64,000 bases of DNA, from NCBI GenBank assembly GCA_038040265.1, contig JBBPIP010000013.1, forward strand, positions 5,546 through 69,545. Reading direction: 5' to 3'. Within the stretch, counting starts at the first letter, position 1. The number at the start of each line of letters is the position of its first letter. Below are positions 15,413 through 23,705 of the stretch, one piece after another. This DNA comes from Chloroflexota bacterium. GTDB lineage: Bacteria; Chloroflexota; Limnocylindria; P2-11E. Made by a program: the position numbers and the translations under genes. Under the pieces are notes generated by a model, which saw only the letters and a list, made by a program, of their open reading frames with translations, made no database searches and was not told the DNA's origin.

Positions 15413-16171
15413 GTGAGTCGGCCGTTCGACCTGAGCGGGAAGCGCTCGCTGATCACCGGCGGTGGGCGCGGGATCGGCCGCGCTATCGCCATGGCGCTGG
15501 CCGAGGCGGGCGCCGATGTCGCTATCACCTCGCGGAAGGGGGAGGACGTCGAGCCGGTCGCGCGCGAGATCCGCGCGAAGGGACGCGCATCGATCGCCCT
15601 GCCTCTGGACGTGCGCAGCGTGGCCTCGATCGGCGCGTGCTTCCACGCCCTCGCGCAGGAGTGGGGGACGATCGACATCCTCGTCAACAGCGCCGGGACC
15701 AACATCCCGACCGACCTCGTGTCGCTCGACGAGGAGGGCTGGGACACCGTCGTCGACACGGACCTCAAGGGCGTCGCCTTCGTAACCCAGGCCGCGCTGC
15801 CGGTGTTAAGGGACGGTGGACGCGTCATCAACATCGCATCCATTTACGGCGTCCTTGGCCGGGTGGAGCGGATCGCCTACAGCGCGGCAAAGGGCGGCGT
15901 CGTGACCCTCACCAAATCCCTGGCCCTGGAGCTCGCGCCACGCGGGATCACTGTGAACGCGGTCGGCCCGAGCCTCATCGAAACCGACCTGACCCGCGAG
16001 CGGATGCGGAAAGACCCAGGCTTTCGGGCTGTGGAGGTCGCGCGCACGCCACTTGGACGTCTCGGCTCCGTCGAAGACGTGGCCGGCGCGGTCGTTTACT
16101 TCGCATCTACCGAGGCGGGTTTCGTGACGGGCCAGCTGCTGCTCGTCGACGGCGGGACCGGCGCGCACTGA
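15413..16171 (+). CDS. Short-chain dehydrogenase/reductase (FabG-like)
   Basis: [21 protein letters not shown] (YxxxK), GITVNAVGP; GTG 15413. Confidence 0.93.
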
Positions 16172-16257
16172 CGGGGGCAGGGGCCCCCGACGGGGCAGGG
16201 GCCCCGCGGCTATCCCCCGGCCGTACGTCCGTACTCCCCCAGGGGCAGGGGCCCCTG
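16172..16257 (+). repeat. Three copies of the 14-mer GGGGCAGGGGCCCC, each a GC hairpin with loop AGGG
   Basis: Copies at 16174-16187, 16192-16205 and 16242-16255; stems extend with compensatory flanks (CG..CG, C..G, CA..TG). Confidence 0.85.
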
Positions 16258-16355
16258 AACGCGCAGCGGGGTCGATCTAGTCCCGTTGGGTGATGGGCCA
16301 CATGGGCCGCCCGCCGTACAAATCAAGCACGAACACGGGAGGAAACGAGGAAACC

Positions 16356-18044
16356 ATGGGAGTCCTGGCCCAGAGCGTGGAGTCGCCCCGGATCGACGCA
16401 GCACCACTCAACGTCGTCCGGATGACGCCGCCCGTTGAAGCGACCCTCCGCATCCTCCTGAACAGCGTTCCCTATCTCATCGGCGCTGCCGTGGTGCGGC
16501 AGCCGGCCGTAGGTGATGCGGTCGAGGCCGAGGTCGGACGGATGCCGTGGCTCCACGACCGTCGCCTTCTCACCCTTCAGCTGCCCGACGACTCGCTTCC
16601 CGCGAACCGCGCGATCCTGCTCGACTGGCCCGTTCCGTACCAGGCCGAATGGGTGGGAGCGCCGCCTCGTCTTCTTATCTCGCGTCTCGTCACTCAAGAC
16701 CGCACCGTCGGGGTGCTCCTCGGCACGCTGATCAGCCGCGAGCAGATCTCCGCTGGTGCGCGCGAGGCGCTCGACCTGTCCTGCGAGCTCATCGCCGCGG
16801 CCGTCGGCAGCGACTCCCTCTCAACGCTTGCCGCAACACCACCCACTGCGGAAGAGCCGCGGCGGCTCGTGGTGGTGCCGGACGAGGTGCTGCCAGAGCC
16901 GGAGTCGTCGCTCGTCATGCCCGAGCCCGCCGAGTCTGAGCCGGTCCTCGATCCGAAGGACGAGCAGGACGAGCGCGACCGCCAGGTCGTCGATGAAGTG
17001 GCACGCGCTCTCGACGAGCTCACGGACGCGAAGTCGATCGGTCGCGTGCTACGCGACGCGGTCACCGCGATCGCGGGCGTCGACGGATTCTCCGTCGCGC
17101 TTTTCAACACCGTGCGCCGCGAGGTCGCCTACCGCTACAAGGTCGTTGGCGCTGATCCCGACTCGGCCGAGATGGGACGTCAGGCCGTCGACGATGGCCC
17201 GGACTGCTACGCGGCTCGTCACGACCGGCGCTGGCACGGCTTCATTCGCGAGATAGGCGTCCGCGGCCCCGAAGGCGTCGAGGCGCGAAAGATCTCCGTT
17301 CTCCAGTACCCACTTCTCGCCGCTGACGAGGTCTTCGGCGTCGCGACGCTCCAGGTGTTCGGTGACTCGGGGTTCTCCGATCACGCGACGCGTCTCGTCC
17401 TTCGCGTGATCGAGGTGTCGAGCGACCGTCTCGCCGCGGTGCGGCGCGCCGCGCGCTTCCAACCAAGTCTCTCCCCTCAGGAGTCCGCGGCGGCCGCCGT
17501 CCTCCCGCCGGTCGCCGCGGCTCCCTTCCCGGCTCCCGTCGTCGCCGGCTCCGAAGCGCCGACGACCGATCAGATCCTCAACGACCTCGTGAACGGCTGC
17601 ACCGAGATCGGTCTGCCGACCACGTTCATGGTTGGCGTGGACCCGGCCGCAGGGCTCATACGTGGCGAGCTCATCTCGAGCTCATCCGCCGCGCGCGAGC
17701 TCGACTACGCCCTCGGGATCTCCGTCGGTCGATTCAAGATCGAGCTCTCCGATCGCTACAACGCGATCGCGCGGGCGTGCCGCGAAGGACGCATCGTGAC
17801 CTCTCCGACCCTCGACGAGCTTGTGCACCCGCTTCGCGACGCGGACGGTGCCGCGACGCTCGAGCGGCTCGTTCAAGGCGGACGTTCGACGATCATCCCG
17901 ATCACCGTGTCCGGCGATGTCGTCGGAGCCCTCATCGTGGGGCCGATGGCGGACGAGCCCGGGTTCAGCACCATCGTGAAAGTGCGCGACCTGGTCAATG
18001 AGACGGCGTCGCGACTCACGGAGGCGTGGCGCACGAAGCACTAG
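16356..18044 (+). CDS. Protein with three GAF-like domains and no output domain
   Basis: Three segments ending in GAF-type 'P/RL...VGVL/VFGVATL/VVGALIV' strands followed by helices, separated by Pro/Glu/Ala linkers; SD GAGG before ATG 16356. Confidence 0.65.
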   Translation: MGVLAQSVESPRIDAAPLNVVRMTPPVEATLRILLNSVPYLIGAAVVRQPAVGDAVEAEVGRMPWLHDRRLLTLQLPDDSLPANRAILLDWPVPYQAEWVGAPPRLLISRLVTQDRTVGVLLGTLISREQISAGAREALDLSCELIAAAVGSDSLSTLAATPPTAEEPRRLVVVPDEVLPEPESSLVMPEPAESEPVLDPKDEQDERDRQVVDEVARALDELTDAKSIGRVLRDAVTAIAGVDGFSVALFNTVRREVAYRYKVVGADPDSAEMGRQAVDDGPDCYAARHDRRWHGFIREIGVRGPEGVEARKISVLQYPLLAADEVFGVATLQVFGDSGFSDHATRLVLRVIEVSSDRLAAVRRAARFQPSLSPQESAAAAVLPPVAAAPFPAPVVAGSEAPTTDQILNDLVNGCTEIGLPTTFMVGVDPAAGLIRGELISSSSAARELDYALGISVGRFKIELSDRYNAIARACREGRIVTSPTLDELVHPLRDADGAATLERLVQGGRSTIIPITVSGDVVGALIVGPMADEPGFSTIVKVRDLVNETASRLTEAWRTKH

Positions 18045-18062
18045 ACCTACACTCCCTCGCCA

Positions 18063-19898
18063 ATGGTCGGCGAGGTGACCTTCGCGGTTATCGGCCTCCT
18101 TTTTCTCATCGCCGACGTGCGCACGTTCTCGTCCACGTTCCAGCTGACGTTCTTCGGTCAATCGAACACGACGCTCGCCGTGATGGCCACGGCGGTCTTC
18201 GCGACCTCGTTCCTATCGCCCCTCGTCGGCTGGCGGCTCGGTCCGAAGCGAGGCGTCGCGCTGAGCGCCGCGATGCTCGGCATCGCGACCGTGATCGCGA
18301 CGGTTGCGCGCCACAACATCGCCGACCTCGCCCTCTCGATCGTCGGGGTGGCGGGTGGTCTGTGGTGGCTCGGCCTGCTCCACGCTTCGCGGCCGGCGGA
18401 TCGCGCCTCGCCGCTGGCAGTCGCGTTGCCCATCGCGTTCTCGGCTGATCTCGTGTTGCGCGCGGCGTTCAGGACGGTGCCGGTCGTCGACCTGAATCTC
18501 GCGCTCGCCGCGCCGCTCGTTCTCGTTGCCGGCCTCGTCTTTCTCGCCTCGGGGGTCGCCGCGATGTCAGGCGTCCGAACCTGGACCCGGCCGGACGCAC
18601 GTGGCGCGCTCGCTCTCATCGCGTTGCCGGCGCTCTTCCTCGTGGCGGAGACCGGCGGGACGAACGGCGCGCAGGTGGCGCTCGCGAGCGGGCTCGGGCT
18701 CGGACCCGAGCCGCCCAGAGCGACTCAGCTCGGCATGGTGCTCCTCGGTCTCGGTCTGGCCGCCGGGTCGCTCGCGCTCTCGCGTCAGTACCCGCGAGGC
18801 GTCGCGGCGGCGATCGCATGCGTAGCCGGGGCCGCGGCGCTCTGGTACGTGCACGCCCCGGTCGTCTCGCTCGTCGGCGGTCTCGTGCTCGCGGCCGGCC
18901 TCTTCATCGCAGCTGCGACGATCCCGGGCGCTCCGCTCCGGGTCAGCGGCTCGCCCGCGGTCGTGACCCTGGCGCTCGCGCTCGGGTGGCTCGTCTTCGT
19001 CGGCACCGCGTTCGGCTTCTACGCGTTCTGGGCGTACCTGCCGGCCGTGTACGCGGCGACCGCGCTCGTCGCGGTTGCGGCGCTGATCGTTCCGGGCGGC
19101 GGGCTCCCGGCCTGGCGCGCGCTTCCCATAGGACTCGTTCCGATCGTGGTTGGAGTGCCGCTCATCGCGCTCCTTATCACACCGACGCCACTGACCAAAG
19201 ATGAGCTGCCCGCGACTTTCAAAGTGATGACCTACAACGTCCATCAGGGCTTCAACGCGGGTCAGGTGCCGTCCCTTGACATGATCGTGGACGTCATCTC
19301 GCGCGAGTCCCCCGACGTCCTACTCCTGCAGGAGGTCGTACGGGGATGGATGATCGATGAGCAGCATGACGCCCTCAGCGTCATTGCGGAACGGCTGGGG
19401 ATGCCGTATGTGTTCGGCCCGAACATCGGCGACCTGTACGGGAACGCGATCCTCTCGCGCTTTCCCATGACCGACGTCAAACGCGTCCATTTCGCGGTCC
19501 AGCCGTCGGCGAGGCATCAGCCCCGCGGTGCAGTCGGCGTCCACATCGGCGACGTGCTCATCGTGACCACGCACCTCGACGAGGTCGCCGACTCGAGCTC
19601 GATCCGACAGGAGCAGGTGCGAACGATCCTGCGGGAATGGGACGGCGAGAAGGTCGCGATTATCGCGGGCGATATGAACGCCGAGCCAGGCGATCTGGAG
19701 ATGGCGCTCTTCTCAGAGGCCGGGTATGGCGATCTCGCCGAGCCGGCCGGCCCGACGACGACGATGGACGATCCGCCGAAACGCATCGACTACATCTGGG
19801 GCATCGGAGTGATCGGCTCGAACCCGCACACCGTATCTGCAGTCCCGATTCCACCGTCGGATCACCGCGCCGTCGTGGTCTTCGTGAGGAAGTCGTAA
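18063..19898 (+). CDS. Multi-pass membrane protein fused to an endonuclease/exonuclease/phosphatase (EEP) domain
   Basis: About 12 TM segments, then MTYNVHQG, DVLLLQEV, GNAILSR, TTHLD, IIAGDMN, RIDYIW, SDH. Confidence 0.85.
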   Translation: MVGEVTFAVIGLLFLIADVRTFSSTFQLTFFGQSNTTLAVMATAVFATSFLSPLVGWRLGPKRGVALSAAMLGIATVIATVARHNIADLALSIVGVAGGLWWLGLLHASRPADRASPLAVALPIAFSADLVLRAAFRTVPVVDLNLALAAPLVLVAGLVFLASGVAAMSGVRTWTRPDARGALALIALPALFLVAETGGTNGAQVALASGLGLGPEPPRATQLGMVLLGLGLAAGSLALSRQYPRGVAAAIACVAGAAALWYVHAPVVSLVGGLVLAAGLFIAAATIPGAPLRVSGSPAVVTLALALGWLVFVGTAFGFYAFWAYLPAVYAATALVAVAALIVPGGGLPAWRALPIGLVPIVVGVPLIALLITPTPLTKDELPATFKVMTYNVHQGFNAGQVPSLDMIVDVISRESPDVLLLQEVVRGWMIDEQHDALSVIAERLGMPYVFGPNIGDLYGNAILSRFPMTDVKRVHFAVQPSARHQPRGAVGVHIGDVLIVTTHLDEVADSSSIRQEQVRTILREWDGEKVAIIAGDMNAEPGDLEMALFSEAGYGDLAEPAGPTTTMDDPPKRIDYIWGIGVIGSNPHTVSAVPIPPSDHRAVVVFVRKS

Positions 19899-19969
19899 CC
19901 GTCCGACCTATAGAGTCCCCGTCCCAGTAGACTGAGCCGCAACCGCCGCGCTTCCTCGAGCGGCAACAC

Positions 19970-22900
19970 GTGGGGCAGGGTATTTCCAAGAACTTCGTGC
20001 ATCTGCACACCCACAGCGAGTACAGCCTGCTCGACGGGCTGTCCCGCCTCAGCGACCTCGTTGCGCGCGCGAAGGCTTTGGACATGCCCGCTCTCGGACT
20101 CACGGACCACGGCGCGCTGTATGGCGCCATCGACTTCTACACGCTGTGCCGCGACGCCGGCATCAAGCCGATCATCGGCGTCGAGACATACATCGCGCGA
20201 AACAACCGCTTCGATCGCGATCCACGGTCCGAAGGCCACGGGAAGCCCTGGCACCTCGTGCTCCTCGCCAAAGACTTCACGGGCTACCAGAACCTCGTCG
20301 CGATGGTCACCGCGGCACACCTGGAGGGCTACTACTACCGGCCTCGCATGGACAAGGACCTCCTCCGGGAGCGCAGCGAGGGCCTGATCGCGCTCTCCGC
20401 CTGCCTGCAGGGCGAGTTGGCGCGCGCCATACAAGACGAGGGCATCGACGCGGCCTGCGCGGTCGCCGAGGAGCACCGAGGCATCTTCGGCGATGGCAAC
20501 TACTACCTCGAGCTCATGTCGCACGGCATTCCCGAGCAGGAGCGCGTGAACGAGGGCGTGCGCGAAGTCTCGCGCCGCACCGGCGTCCCGCTCGTGGTCA
20601 CGAACGACATCCACTACGTCCACGCCGAAGACGCCGAGGCGCAGGACGTCATGGTCTGCATCCAGAGCGGCAAGACCATCGACACGCCCGACCGCCTCAA
20701 GATGATCGACAACCCCGAGCTCTTCATGCGCACCGCCGCGCAGATGAGCGAGCTGTTCCCGAACGACCACGAGGCGCTCGAGAACACGCTGCGGATCGCC
20801 GAGAAAGTCGATCTCAAACTACCTCTCGGCGAGCTTCGCCTCCCGCACTTCGAGGTCCCGGACGGGAAGACGCCCGAGGAACAGCTGCGCACGCTCGCGG
20901 ACGCCGGCGCCATGGAAAAATACGGCGCGATCACCCACGAGCTGCGCGAGCGGATCGACAAGGAGCTCGCCATCATCGCGAAGACGGGCTACACCGGCTA
21001 CATCCTCATCGTTCAGGACTTCATCCGCTTCGCGCACGAGCAGGGGATCCTGACGGCGGTGCGTGGCTCCGCCGGTGGGTCGGTCGTGAACTACGCGATC
21101 GGCATGACCGACATCGACCCGCTCAAGTACGGGCTCATCTTCGAGCGGTTCCTGAACCTCGAGCGCTTCACTCCGCCGGACATCGACGTCGATTTCATGG
21201 GCGACCGCCGCGACGAGGTCATCCAGTACGTGACCCAGAAGTACGGTGCCGACCGCGTCGCGCAGATCGGCACGTTCAACACGATGCTGGCGCGTGCCGC
21301 GGTCCGCGACGTCGCGCGGGTCCTCGGCATGCCATATGGCGAGGCGGACCGGGTGGCGAAAACTATTCCCTTCGGCACCGACCTCACCGACTCACGTCGC
21401 ATGTCCACCGAGCTCCGCGACCTCGAGCAGGAGCCGCACGTGCAGCGGCTGCTCGACCTGGCGGAGCGGGTCGAAGGCCTGGTGCGGTCGACCGGCACAC
21501 ACGCCGCCGGTGTGGTCATCTCGCGGGAGCCGATCACGCAGCTCGTGCCGCTCGAGCGCTCGAAGGGCAACGTCAACGCGCTTCAGACTCAGTACGAGGA
21601 CAAACAGCTCGAAAAGCTCGGCGTCCTGAAGTTCGACTTCCTCGGCCTCGGGAACCTCACGATCCTCGATCACGCGCTCCGGCTGATCGAGAGCAAACGC
21701 GGAATCAAGATCCGCCGCGAGGACATCCCGCTCGACGACAAGAAGACCTTCGAGCTCCTCGGCTCCGGAGAAACGACCGGCATGTTCCAGCTGGAATCCG
21801 CCGGGATGCGCCGCTATATCCGGGAGCTCAAGCCGGACCGGGTCGAGGACGTTATGGCGATGGTCGCGCTCTTCCGGCCCGGCCCGATGGACTACATCCC
21901 GACGTACATCCGGCGCAAGCATGGCGAGGAGCCGGTCACGTACGCTCACCCGACCCTCGAGCCCGTGCTCAAGGCGACGTACGGCGTCATGGTCTACCAG
22001 GAGGACGTGATGGCGGTGACGCAGGCGCTCGCCGGCTTCACCCTCGCCGAGGCCGACGTGCTCTGCTACGCCGTGCGCAAGAAGTTCCGCGACAAGCTCG
22101 ACGCGCAGAAGGTGAAATTCGTCTCGGGCGCGATCCGCAACGGCGTGCACGCCGACGTGATCGAGGCGGTCTGGAAGGACTTCGAGCCTTTCGCGCGGTA
22201 CGGATTCAACCGCGCGCACGCCGCGATCTACGGGATCATCGCGTACCACACCGCCTACCTGAAGGCCAACTACACGACGGAGTACATGACCGCCGTGCTC
22301 TCGGCGGAAATGGGGACGCCGGACCGGATCGCGATCGCGGTGGCCGAGTGCCGCCGGATGGGACTCTCCGTACTTGCTCCGGACGTGAACGAGTCGGAGC
22401 TCGATTTTGCGTTCACCCCCAAAGGCATTCGGTTCGGGCTGGGTGCCGTCAAGAACGTCGGCGAGGGAGCCGCGGAGGCCATCGTCGAGGCTCGCCGCGC
22501 CGGCGGTCCATTTGGGTCGCTTGACGACTTCTGCGATCGACTGGACCTGCAGCGCACCAACAAGCGCGTGATCGAGTCGCTCATCAAGTCGGGCGCGTGC
22601 GATGAGCTCGGCCCGCGGCTCTGGCAGCTCGATCGTCTCGATCAGGTACTGGAAACGGCACAGCGTGGCCAGCGAGATCGAGCCAGCGGGCAGGTCGGTC
22701 TCTTCGAGGAGCTTGGATTCAGCGGCCAGCTCCACGCCAAGTTCATTCCGGGGCCCAACGCCAAGTTCCTCGACTCACCCAAGGAGAAGCTCGCGTGGGA
22801 GAAAGAGCTGCTTGGCATCTACCTCTCGGCGCATCCGCTCAACGCCCTCGCCCCGCGGATGAAGGATGTCGAGAATCTCGTCGCCCTGGCCGAGCTCAGC

Positions 22901-23692
22901 GAGGCGGGGGAGGACCTGGTCACGATCGCGTGCGTGGTGACGAACGCGCGCAAGCACATCACCAAGAACAAGCAGCTCATGATGTTCGCGCAAGTCGAAG
23001 ATCTGACCGGCAGCATCGAGGTCACTGTCTTTCCGCGTGTCTACGAAGCGACGGCGCCCATCTGGAGCACCGACGAGGTGCTGCTCGTGCTCGCGCGTGT
23101 CGAGCAGCGTGACGAGGACCCGAAGCTTCTCTGCGAGCACGCGGTGCGTTTCGACGACGCCGGAATCGAGGAGATCAAGCGCGTCGCCGAGGAGCGCCGG
23201 CAGTTCCTCGCCAAGCGTGCCAAGTACACGGCGCGCAGTGGAAACGGCGGGAGCGCGCAGTCTGTAGCCGTGCAGACGGGGTCTGGGGGCCCTACTCCAT
23301 CAGGGGCCCCTTCCCCTGGGGCCTCTCTTCGTCGGACCTATGGGCCGGGGCGGGACGAGAGCGTGATGGCTCCAGCCCAACGGTCCTCCTCAGAGAAACC
23401 CCTCCCCCCGTCAATGGAGACACCCGAGCCCGCTCCCGATGAGCCTCCTGCCCTCGTCATTCGGTTCCGGGAGGTGCTCGACTATGAGCGCTCCATCGCG
23501 CTCTTCCAGAAGATCCAGGAGGTCCTGAAAGACCACGCCGGCGTGTCGCAGGTCGTGCTCGAGCTGCCACGAAATGGCGGCGGGATGCGTCGGGTCCAGA
23601 CCTCTTTCCGCGCGAAACCCTCGAAGGAGTTGGCCGAGGCGGTCGCGCGTGAGGTCGGCGGCGACGTCGTCGAAGTCGTCCTCCCGCGTTGA
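19970..23692 (+). CDS. dnaE: DNA polymerase III alpha subunit
   Basis: PHP HLHTHSEYSLLDG/TDHG/TNDIH, RGSAGGS, FERFLN, PDIDVDF, HAAGVVI, YGFNRAHA, OB fold; long low-complexity linker near the C-terminus. Confidence 0.98.
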   Translation: MGQGISKNFVHLHTHSEYSLLDGLSRLSDLVARAKALDMPALGLTDHGALYGAIDFYTLCRDAGIKPIIGVETYIARNNRFDRDPRSEGHGKPWHLVLLAKDFTGYQNLVAMVTAAHLEGYYYRPRMDKDLLRERSEGLIALSACLQGELARAIQDEGIDAACAVAEEHRGIFGDGNYYLELMSHGIPEQERVNEGVREVSRRTGVPLVVTNDIHYVHAEDAEAQDVMVCIQSGKTIDTPDRLKMIDNPELFMRTAAQMSELFPNDHEALENTLRIAEKVDLKLPLGELRLPHFEVPDGKTPEEQLRTLADAGAMEKYGAITHELRERIDKELAIIAKTGYTGYILIVQDFIRFAHEQGILTAVRGSAGGSVVNYAIGMTDIDPLKYGLIFERFLNLERFTPPDIDVDFMGDRRDEVIQYVTQKYGADRVAQIGTFNTMLARAAVRDVARVLGMPYGEADRVAKTIPFGTDLTDSRRMSTELRDLEQEPHVQRLLDLAERVEGLVRSTGTHAAGVVISREPITQLVPLERSKGNVNALQTQYEDKQLEKLGVLKFDFLGLGNLTILDHALRLIESKRGIKIRREDIPLDDKKTFELLGSGETTGMFQLESAGMRRYIRELKPDRVEDVMAMVALFRPGPMDYIPTYIRRKHGEEPVTYAHPTLEPVLKATYGVMVYQEDVMAVTQALAGFTLAEADVLCYAVRKKFRDKLDAQKVKFVSGAIRNGVHADVIEAVWKDFEPFARYGFNRAHAAIYGIIAYHTAYLKANYTTEYMTAVLSAEMGTPDRIAIAVAECRRMGLSVLAPDVNESELDFAFTPKGIRFGLGAVKNVGEGAAEAIVEARRAGGPFGSLDDFCDRLDLQRTNKRVIESLIKSGACDELGPRLWQLDRLDQVLETAQRGQRDRASGQVGLFEELGFSGQLHAKFIPGPNAKFLDSPKEKLAWEKELLGIYLSAHPLNALAPRMKDVENLVALAELSEAGEDLVTIACVVTNARKHITKNKQLMMFAQVEDLTGSIEVTVFPRVYEATAPIWSTDEVLLVLARVEQRDEDPKLLCEHAVRFDDAGIEEIKRVAEERRQFLAKRAKYTARSGNGGSAQSVAVQTGSGGPTPSGAPSPGASLRRTYGPGRDESVMAPAQRSSSEKPLPPSMETPEPAPDEPPALVIRFREVLDYERSIALFQKIQEVLKDHAGVSQVVLELPRNGGGMRRVQTSFRAKPSKELAEAVAREVGGDVVEVVLPR

Positions 23693-23705
23693 GCACCGTT
23701 GGTAG

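What the first reader, a model, noticed from the sequence alone, without database searches (positions are those of the whole stretch)
23230..23450. Palindromic repeat element in frame inside the dnaE linker
Positions 23300-23321 on the minus strand read CCCCAGGGGAAGGGGCCCCTGA, against CCCCAGGGGCAGGGGCCCCTGA at intergenic 16237-16258 (21 of 22 identical). Around it, 11 of 20 codons (23282-23341) end in A/T in an otherwise strongly GC3 gene, and a GTCTG/CAGAC hairpin lies just upstream. The Gly/Ser/Pro linker between the OB fold and the C-terminal domain therefore looks derived from non-coding palindromic DNA. This resembles Rickettsia palindromic elements that became protein segments. A family of such coding-tolerant elements in this lineage is unknown to me.
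Basis: partly seen in the sequence, partly recalled or inferred. Interest (0 to 1): 0.62.

Follow-up and report, generated by a model that had tools for sequence, protein, structure and literature searches.

The report
Mini hairpin repeat translated inside DnaE
A 33-base copy of a small GC-rich hairpin repeat, scattered through this soil Chloroflexota genome, sits in frame in the floppy linker of the replicative DNA polymerase and adds 11 amino acids; this is a new example, in a new lineage, of a known phenomenon.

Summary
dnaE lies on the + strand (19970-23692). Its linker carries a 36-nt block (23282-23317) where 13 congeneric genomes and 9 environmental contigs have only GGC. That is a clean +33 nt, +11 aa indel.

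The block is a diverged copy (3 of 32 mismatches) of a dispersed two-hairpin repeat, GGGGCCCCTRCCCC-NNNN-GGGGCCCCTRCCCC. A reversed control pattern gives no hit at up to 6 mismatches. The 14-nt unit has 47 exact copies in the 2.68-Mb MAG (Ca. Limnocylindria).

The family is confined to one clade of the genus. In the sister genus sampled, 5 of 19 genomes carry a single copy each.

Other copies are read in frame in GrpE, a DHH phosphoesterase, an acetyl-CoA-synthetase-like enzyme, an amidohydrolase C-terminus, a PMT-type glycosyltransferase and a 485-aa protein. Most of these are indels against orthologues.

No Y1/RAYT transposase was found in 22 genus genomes, and the repeat has no invariant GTAG or CGTC end tag.

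Only 11-12 of the roughly 62-70 linker residues come from the repeat. The GTCTG/CAGAC "hairpin" is at chance level.

Intragenic REPs, including one in Rickettsia conorii DnaE, are published (PMC3733652). This scan has also met the same kind of event in other genomes. It is a new member of a known kind.

The parts
19970..23692 (+). dnaE (DNA polymerase III alpha subunit, 1240 aa)
   Evidence: Pfam PHP, DNA_pol3_alpha, finger, HHH_6 and OB fold. Orthologues are 82-93% identical in congeners.
23282..23317 (+). Inserted repeat block TCTGGGGGCCCTACTCCATCAGGGGCCCCTTCCCCT. It replaces GGC of the relatives (net +33 nt) and encodes residues 1105-1116, SGGPTPSGAPSP.
   Evidence: DNA alignment with 9 congeners, with 13 at protein level, and with 9 metagenome contigs that all have the empty site.
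23285..23316 (+). 32-nt dimer core GGGGGCCCTACTCCATCAGGGGCCCCTTCCCC, with 3 mismatches to GGGGCCCCTRCCCCRTCRGGGGCCCCTRCCCC
   Evidence: The second unit at 23303-23316 has 1 mismatch to the 14-nt unit. Hairpin potential has decayed (z = -0.9 and -0.3, against -2.8 and -3.1 for the consensus).
23246..23431 (+). Disordered DnaE linker (residues 1093-1154) between the OB fold and the C-terminal domain
   Evidence: AF2 pLDDT is below 50 for nearly all of fragment residues 142-203. Its length is hypervariable across 16 family members.
23453..23680 (+). Conserved C-terminal beta-alpha-beta-beta-alpha-beta domain of DnaE (residues about 1162-1237)
   Evidence: pLDDT above 90. Conserved across the family. 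No Pfam match.
16174..16205 (-). Intergenic dimer copy directly after the stop codon of the upstream SDR-like gene
   Evidence: Present in G000, G017 and G007 (degenerate in G007) and absent in G005 and G015, with a gap of 30-31 nt.
16240..16266 (+). Intergenic singleton-type copy (hairpin CAGGGGC-AGGG-GCCCCTG plus a GCGCAG module).
   Evidence: It is a 27-nt indel: absent in G017, G007 and G015, and 21 nt long in G005.

Best explanation
The segment is a copy of a lineage-specific, REP-like mini repeat that entered the dnaE linker at the DNA level and is now translated.

What the repeat is. The unit is an 18-nt hairpin, CAGGGGY-AGGG-GCCCCTG, whose 14-nt core reads GGGGCCCCTRCCCC on the other strand. 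It occurs either as a head-to-tail dimer of about 33-36 nt, or as a roughly 27-nt singleton joined to a small GCGC-TTC-GCGC hairpin.

What is shown. About 40 loci exist in this genome. The dimer is confined to one clade of one Ca. Limnocylindria genus, apart from single copies in 5 of 19 genomes of a sister genus. Copies are present or absent at orthologous intergenic and genic sites among species. The dnaE copy is absent from all relatives examined.

What is inferred. The element is copied to new sites by an unidentified process that favours G4C2-4-like targets, including its own GGGG|CCCC core. Selection then keeps only insertions whose length is a multiple of three, that lack a stop codon in the reading frame used, and that fall in disordered linkers, loops or termini. 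In DnaE the result is 11 extra Gly/Ser/Pro/Thr/Ala residues in a linker whose length already varies widely, so polymerase function is probably unaffected. The three substitutions in the dnaE copy all weaken its hairpins, which fits drift or selection against structure inside a gene. No role of the insert itself in DnaE is proposed.
For: - Clean +33-nt indel; 9 further empty-site contigs.
- Family statistics: 47 exact units against 0 for the control; 18 dimers at up to 6 mismatches against 0 for the control, with the dnaE copy at 3 mismatches.
- Atypical A/T-ending codons show the segment was not shaped by this genome's codon usage.
- The same DNA is read in at least four different frame and orientation combinations in other genes.
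- Other indels against orthologues: DHH phosphoesterase +30/+33 nt in 3 species; Acs-like +27 nt in 4 species, with a nested +33 nt in one of them; GrpE +33 nt in G000 only; amidohydrolase C-terminus +33 nt in 2 species.
- Intergenic presence/absence at orthologous sites.
- Taxonomic restriction.
- Hairpin folds of the consensus.
- The insert lies in an AF2-disordered stretch of a length-hypervariable linker.
- Junction microhomology: 4 of 6 empty sites carry a core 5-mer, against 6% of random CDS 18-mers.
- Published precedent for intragenic REPs, including DnaE: PMC3733652.
Against: - No mobilising enzyme was found. PF01797 is absent from all 22 genus genomes, but these are MAGs that are 60-92% complete.
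- No reads could be examined, so the insert rests on a single assembly.
- No independent contig with the filled dnaE site was found.
- The microhomology test was framed after seeing the data.
- The gene calls used for the census come from my own crude caller.
- The glycosyltransferase and 485-aa cases sit in variable loops and are not clean indels.
Confidence: 0.88

Rival explanations
1. The similarity is convergent low complexity. A Gly/Pro/Ser linker in a 67% GC genome would happen to resemble the repeat.
For: At up to 2 mismatches the 14-nt unit is no more frequent than its reversed control (106 against 106). Some environmental relatives carry GGGGCACCTTCCCC-like strings elsewhere in the linker.
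Against: The full 32-nt dimer matches with 3 mismatches, and the control gives 0 hits at up to 6 mismatches. The block is a discrete 33-nt indel. It uses A/T-ending codons that are atypical for the gene.
Confidence: 0.03
2. The block is an assembly artefact: repeat-containing reads were wrongly joined into dnaE in this MAG.
For: The insert is seen in one assembly only.
Against: The dnaE copy differs at 3 of 32 positions from the family consensus and has more mismatches than any other clear dimer listed there, so it does not look like another copy spliced in. Both flanks continue dnaE in frame on a long contig. Equivalent in-frame inserts recur at the same sites in independently assembled species.
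Confidence: 0.03
3. The origin is at the protein level. A Pro/Thr/Ser/Gly/Ala linker cassette (GAPTPS) would be selected as a peptide and passed between genes by gene conversion, with the intergenic copies being secondary debris.
For: Three genes (dnaE, the glycosyltransferase and the DHH phosphoesterase) read the element in the same frame, as G-A/G-P-T/R-P-S-G-A-P.
Against: Other genes read the same DNA as GVGAPDGVGAP, QGQGPLMGQGP or GPLPHQGPLP. Of about 40 loci, 28 lie outside predicted CDSs, in both orientations. Copies keep nucleotide identity at synonymous sites and use non-preferred codons. The singleton type carries a non-peptide hairpin module.
Confidence: 0.04
4. The copy has a function as nucleic acid inside dnaE, for example as a G-quadruplex, i-motif or hairpin that pauses transcription, translation or replication and so tunes polymerase expression.
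For: The consensus G-rich strand has the form G4-N2-G4-N8-G4-N2-G4 and folds into strong hairpins. Earlier notes on this genome raised G4 potential (e1-3245469, e1-5237770).
Against: The dnaE copy has lost most of its structure (z = -0.9 and -0.3). The mRNA strand carries the C-rich version. The insert is missing from all 13 congeners and 9 environmental alleles, so it is not a conserved feature of dnaE.
Confidence: 0.05

Closest known systems
Intragenic GTAG-/CGTC-tagged REPs (Di Nocera, De Gregorio and Rocco 2013, PMC3733652)
   Same: Both are 20-40-bp GC-rich hairpin repeats. They are dispersed, mostly intergenic and near 3' ends of genes, and they form singletons, dimers and arrays. A fraction lies entirely inside ORFs and is read in frame, often in replication and repair genes; the paper lists a REP in R. 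conorii DnaE and REPs in DnaE2 genes. CGTC REPs also lack a dedicated transposase.
   Different: There is no invariant GTAG or CGTC end tag; the variable position is A in 29 units and G in 31, and the spacer is ATCA or GTCG. The dimers are head-to-tail, which the paper says is rare. No RAYT was found in 22 genomes. The family belongs to Ca. Limnocylindria and was not described in the papers I searched.
Rickettsia palindromic elements, RPE (Ogata et al. 2000 and 2002, as summarised in PMC10969869)
   Same: Selfish palindromic DNA inserted in frame into unrelated housekeeping genes. It appears as clean indels against orthologues, lies in structurally tolerant positions, and a large share of copies is intragenic.
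   Different: RPEs are about 100-150 bp and encode a conserved peptide of about 30-50 aa. This element is 27-36 nt (9-12 aa), is read in several frames, and comes from an unrelated lineage with no sequence likeness.
REPIN/RAYT systems (REP doublets mobilised by a domesticated Y1 transposase; PMC5581495, PMC8266576)
   Same: Two adjacent short hairpins form the replicating unit, copy number is lineage-specific, and the elements are non-autonomous.
   Different: REPINs are inverted doublets with one RAYT gene per genome. Here the doublets are direct, and PF01797 is absent from all genus genomes searched.
Small in-frame double-hairpin repeats noted earlier in this scan in other phyla (e1-987268, e1-868287, e1-3750385)
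   Same: GC-rich hairpin repeats of 18-40 nt, inserted as multiples of three into loops and linkers of essential genes such as dnaX, pcrA and lepA.
   Different: The sequences and host lineages differ. I did not re-test those notes here.

Membership tests
REP (GTAG/CGTC-tagged repetitive extragenic palindromes) | Short (20-40 bp) GC-rich stem-loop unit present in many dispersed copies | tested here: met
   There are 47 exact 14-nt units against 0 for the control. The 18-nt unit folds as a 7-bp stem with an AGGG loop.
REP (GTAG/CGTC-tagged repetitive extragenic palindromes) | Conserved GTAG or CGTC tetranucleotide at one end of the unit | tested here: not met
   The position that would give GTAG is A in 29 units and G in 31. 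The spacer varies between ATCA and GTCG. No invariant terminal tag appears in the logo of 63 units.
REP (GTAG/CGTC-tagged repetitive extragenic palindromes) | Associated RAYT (Y1/HUH transposase, PF01797) in the genome | tested here: not met
   0 of 22 genus genomes, including G000; the control genomes ring. Caveat: these are MAGs, 60-92% complete.
REP (GTAG/CGTC-tagged repetitive extragenic palindromes) | Mostly intergenic, between co-directional or convergent genes, close to upstream 3' ends | tested here: met
   Of 28 intergenic loci, 24 are tandem, 3 convergent and 1 divergent. Of the 24 tandem loci, 16 lie nearer the upstream 3' end. Gene calls are my own and crude.
REP (GTAG/CGTC-tagged repetitive extragenic palindromes) | Dimers mainly head-to-head or tail-to-tail (inverted) | tested here: not met
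   The dimers are direct repeats with an 18-nt period.
Rickettsia palindromic elements (RPE) | In-frame insertion in ORFs, seen as an indel against orthologues, at structurally tolerant sites | tested here: met
   dnaE, GrpE and Acs-like, DHH, amidohydrolase. The dnaE insert lies in an AF2-disordered stretch.
Rickettsia palindromic elements (RPE) | Element of about 100-150 bp encoding a conserved peptide; Rickettsia lineage | tested here: not met
   The element is 27-36 nt and is read in at least 4 frames. The host is Ca. Limnocylindria.
MITE | Terminal inverted repeats plus target-site duplication, usually 50-500 bp, derived from an IS element | tested here: inconclusive
   The size is below the MITE range. 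Junctions show 3-8 nt of G/C microhomology rather than a fixed duplication. I did not search for a parent IS.

The most novel reading that the evidence does not exclude
The family may be a transposase-independent mini-element with three linked properties. First, it homes to GGGGCC-like microhomology, including its own GGGG|CCCC core (a nested copy in the Acs-like gene of G033). Second, all its size classes are multiples of three (array periods of 15 and 18 nt; inserts of 27 and 33 nt). Third, because of this it lives equally well in coding and non-coding DNA. It would then be a recurrent source of new linker and loop residues in essential proteins of a soil Chloroflexota genus, where about 40% of dimer copies are translated.
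Probability: 0.3. Interest if true: 0.6.

Novelty: new member of a known kind. Interest (0 to 1): 0.4.

Why it matters
This is a well-documented case of selfish hairpin DNA being tolerated and translated inside essential genes (dnaE, grpE). The host is an uncultured soil lineage where no such repeats were reported in the papers I searched. Empty and filled sites are available across about 20 sister species.

That comparative set could be used to date insertions, to look for the factor that mobilises the repeat, and to ask how disordered linkers gain length.

It also matters for annotation. These repeats break MAG assemblies and can be mistaken for genuine low-complexity protein sequence.

Tried and rejected
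- Rfam scan of 15900-23700: only a sub-threshold sX11 hit (25 bits against a gathering score of 70), so no known RNA family.
- Y1/RAYT search in the own genome and in the genus: none found.
- Idea that GGGGCCCC is a specifically avoided (restriction-like) palindrome: rejected. All G/C runs are depleted (GGGCCC 588 and CCCGGG 867, each against 3777 expected at zero order), and GGGGCCCC is above its Markov expectation because of the repeat.
- GTCTG/CAGAC hairpin: chance level.
- Stop-free frames as a special adaptation: rejected. By my estimate from base composition, each frame of a 36-nt stretch at 67% GC has roughly a three-in-four chance of being open, so about 4-5 open frames of 6 are expected, which is what the consensus dimer shows.
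- Test for independent recurrent insertion at the DHH site: the gene tree is star-like, and the AU test does not reject a single origin (p = 0.283). Neither recurrence nor a single origin is shown.
- Metagenome scans for a second filled dnaE allele: the flexible junction pattern found nothing. The right-flank pattern found 9 contigs, all with the empty site.
- Fold search of the DnaE C-terminal model: dominated by OB folds and PolIII alpha, and it adds nothing about the insert.

Full report
**Observation.** The window is GC-rich; the genome it comes from has 67% GC. The long ORF at 19970-23692 on the + strand encodes a 1240-aa DnaE. It has PHP, polymerase, finger, HhH and OB-fold domains, with the OB fold at residues 984-1056.

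The two 22-mers are the only matches in the window at up to 3 mismatches. They lie at 16237-16258 (+) and 23300-23321 (-), and none is expected by shuffling.

The codon statement is exact. Of the 20 codons at 23282-23341, 11 end in A/T, in a gene with GC3 of 0.873. This is the only one of 1221 twenty-codon windows to reach 11.

The GTCTG/CAGAC inverted repeat is present but trivial. About 45% of 60-nt windows in dnaE contain a 5-bp inverted repeat of that kind, and one arm is the insert's own left end.

**The repeat family.** The window's genome is a 2.68-Mb MAG of 37 contigs, 84.6% complete. Titles of near-identical dnaE contigs name Candidatus Limnocylindria, in the Chloroflexota.

GGGGCCCC occurs 64 times, nearly always as GGGGCCCCT[A/G]CCCC. 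That 14-nt unit has 47 exact copies against 0 for the reversed control, and 63 against 5 at one mismatch.

A logo of the 63 units extends the unit to tCA-GGGGCCCCTRCCCC-TG. On the other strand this is the hairpin CAGGGGY-AGGG-GCCCCTG.

The units come in three arrangements:
- Head-to-tail dimers with an 18-nt period, GGGGCCCCTRCCCC-(ATCA/GTCG)-GGGGCCCCTRCCCC.
- Singletons preceded by a small GCGC-TTC-GCGC hairpin.
- A few arrays with periods of 15 and 18 nt.

The consensus dimer folds into two strong hairpins as single-stranded DNA (-12.3 and -13.5 kcal/mol; z = -2.8 and -3.1).

The dnaE copy is a whole dimer, not just a 22-mer. It reads GGGGGCCCTACTCCATCAGGGGCCCCTTCCCC at 23285-23316 and has 3 mismatches. 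The reversed control gives no hit even at 6 mismatches. Its three substitutions all fall in G or C runs, and its fold is no better than shuffled sequence (z = -0.9 and -0.3).

**The indel.** I fetched DnaE from 30 related genomes and aligned the C-terminal parts.
- All 13 congeners with this region read ...CAG-ACG/CCG-GGG-[GGC]-GGG-GCC-TCT....
- G000 reads ...CAG-ACG-GGG-[TCTGGGGGCCCTACTCCATCAGGGGCCCCTTCCCCT]-GGG-GCC-TCT....
- So 36 nt replace 3 nt. The net gain is 33 nt, or 11 residues: SGGPTPSGAPSP instead of G.

Nine soil-metagenome contigs that share the right flank also have the empty site.

The rest of the linker is present in all relatives and varies widely in length across the family. 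AlphaFold2 with a 16-sequence alignment gives pLDDT below 50 for nearly all of residues 1093-1154. The insert (1105-1116) lies inside that stretch. It is flanked by a confident OB fold and a confident beta-alpha-beta-beta-alpha-beta C-terminal domain.

Hence the repeat contributed 11-12 residues to a pre-existing flexible linker. It did not create the linker.

**Other translated copies.** A simple codon-log-odds gene caller placed 28 of about 40 repeat loci outside predicted CDSs and 12 inside. Some of the 12 lie near dubious 5' ends and are probably non-coding: Pth, MurD and two others.

Pfam naming and orthologue alignments across 22 genus genomes confirmed the following in-frame copies:

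| Host gene | Insert | Genomes carrying it |
|---|---|---|
| DHH/DHHA1 phosphoesterase | +30 or +33 nt in a DHHA1 loop | G000, G017, G033; G014 has a different 24-nt G/C-rich insert at the same site |
| Acetyl-CoA-synthetase-like enzyme | +27-nt singleton-type element | G000, G017, G032, G033; G033 also has a second +33-nt dimer nested in the GGGG\|CCCC core |
| GrpE, N-terminal disordered region | +33 nt | G000 only |
| Amidohydrolase, just before the last codon | +33 nt (VP[GVGAPDGVGPP]A*) | G000 and G017 |
| Unannotated 485-aa protein, Pro-rich linker | not a clean indel | G000, G005, G015 |
| PMT-type glycosyltransferase (1237 aa), variable loop | not a clean indel | G000 |

The same DNA is read as GAPTPSGAPTP, GVGAPDGVGAP, QGQGPLMGQGP or GPLPHQGPLP, depending on strand and frame. 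Selection therefore acts on the DNA element and on tolerance of its product, not on one peptide.

About 6-7 of roughly 15 dimers in this genome are intragenic.

**Distribution and mobility.** The dimer pattern is found in 14 of 22 genus genomes at up to 2 mismatches, and the control gives 0. Among 201 genomes of the class, it occurs in this genus and as single copies in 5 of 19 genomes of a sister genus. It was not found in 134 genomes of the other families.

A four-protein tree puts the repeat-rich genomes in one crown clade.

Orthologous intergenic sites are also polymorphic. In the window's own spacer, the dimer after the stop codon is present in G000, G017 and G007 and absent in G005 and G015.

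For the DHH insert, a single origin is not rejected (AU p = 0.283).

Four of six empty sites carry a 5-mer of the GGGGCCCC core at the junction, against 6% of random CDS 18-mers. This suggests targeting by microhomology or sequence preference, but the test was framed after the fact.

**What moves it.** This is unknown. No Y1/RAYT transposase (PF01797) was found in any of the 22 genus genomes, while the control genomes ring. There is no Rfam family.

The mechanism I consider most likely is non-autonomous copying of a hairpin element into G4C2-4-like sites. This could happen through an unidentified trans-acting enzyme or through template switching at hairpins. Purifying selection would then remove all but insertions that are multiples of three, stop-free and located in disordered segments. 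That part is inference.

**Comparison with what is known.** Di Nocera et al. 2013 (PMC3733652) describe GTAG- and CGTC-tagged REPs of 20-40 bp.
- They are mostly intergenic and near 3' ends of genes.
- A variable number lie entirely within ORFs, many of them in replication and repair genes. Examples include a REP in the DnaE gene of R. conorii and REPs in DnaE2 genes.
- More than half of the intragenic inserts are dimers or groups.
- CGTC REPs lack a dedicated transposase.

RPEs of Rickettsia are the classic in-frame case (PMC10969869).

The present family works like these. It fails two defining REP features that I tested: an invariant end tag and an associated RAYT. Its dimers are head-to-tail, which that paper calls rare. 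It is also far smaller than an RPE.

I found no description of repeats in Limnocylindria.

**Earlier notes of this scan.** Other readers had already flagged the same GGGGCCCC-core motif elsewhere in this genome (e1-3245470, e1-3245469) and in this window's spacer (e1-5237770). The scan also holds several followed-up cases of in-frame hairpin repeats in other phyla (e1-987268, e1-868287, e1-3750385 and others). So the scan has met this kind of event before on other DNA.

**Limits.**
- Three points argue against an artefact. The dnaE copy differs from the consensus at 3 of 32 positions and is not a consensus copy spliced in. Both flanks are in-frame dnaE. Analogous inserts recur in independently assembled species.
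- Gene calls for the census are my own and crude.
- The MAGs are incomplete, so failure to find a transposase does not prove it is absent.

**Verdict.** This is a new member of a known kind and of moderate interest.

Noticed in passing
L157 (G033:C10, Acs-like gene; dimer at G033:C10:7985-8016): A 33-nt dimer is nested inside the GGGG|CCCC core of an older 27-nt singleton-type insert in the acyl-CoA synthetase gene. This gives 20 extra residues and suggests the element can target its own core.
   Followed up: partly
L145 (G014:C62, DHH phosphoesterase): A different 24-nt G/C-rich insert (GGGGCTCTGTCCCCCTGCCCCCGA) sits at exactly the DHHA1-loop site where three other species carry the dimer. 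It could mark an insertion hot spot or be an old, decayed copy.
   Followed up: no
G000:C8:48112-48191 (outside the window): An array of five tandem units (periods of 15 and 18 nt) would read GVGAPGVGAPDGVGAPDGVGAPGAGAP near the N-terminus of a 211-aa ORF. Whether it is 5'UTR or coding is undecided.
   Followed up: no
window 23453-23680: DnaE ends in a confidently predicted beta-alpha-beta-beta-alpha-beta domain of about 76 residues. It is conserved across the family and has no Pfam match. It probably corresponds to the tau-binding C-terminal domain of PolIII alpha (4iqj aligned over 294 columns but with poor rmsd).
   Followed up: partly
Genus genomes, paralogue of the 485-aa protein (for example G018:C3:37564-38865, G001:C100:17502-18734): In about ten genus genomes, a 35-40% identical paralogue is matched across one in-frame stop (TAG in all but G009, which has TAA). 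It could be two adjacent same-frame genes or a conserved read-through. I did not examine it.
   Followed up: no
whole genome G000: All G/C homopolymer junction words are strongly depleted relative to base composition (GGGCCC 588 and CCCGGG 867, each against 3777 expected). The repeat therefore holds most of the genome's GGGGCCCC sites.
   Followed up: partly
G000:C7:37199-39976: A second PolIII-alpha-like gene, 37-39% identical to DnaE, is matched in two pieces within one 1116-aa open frame. It is present in most genus genomes and looks like a DnaE2 or second alpha-subunit paralogue.
   Followed up: no
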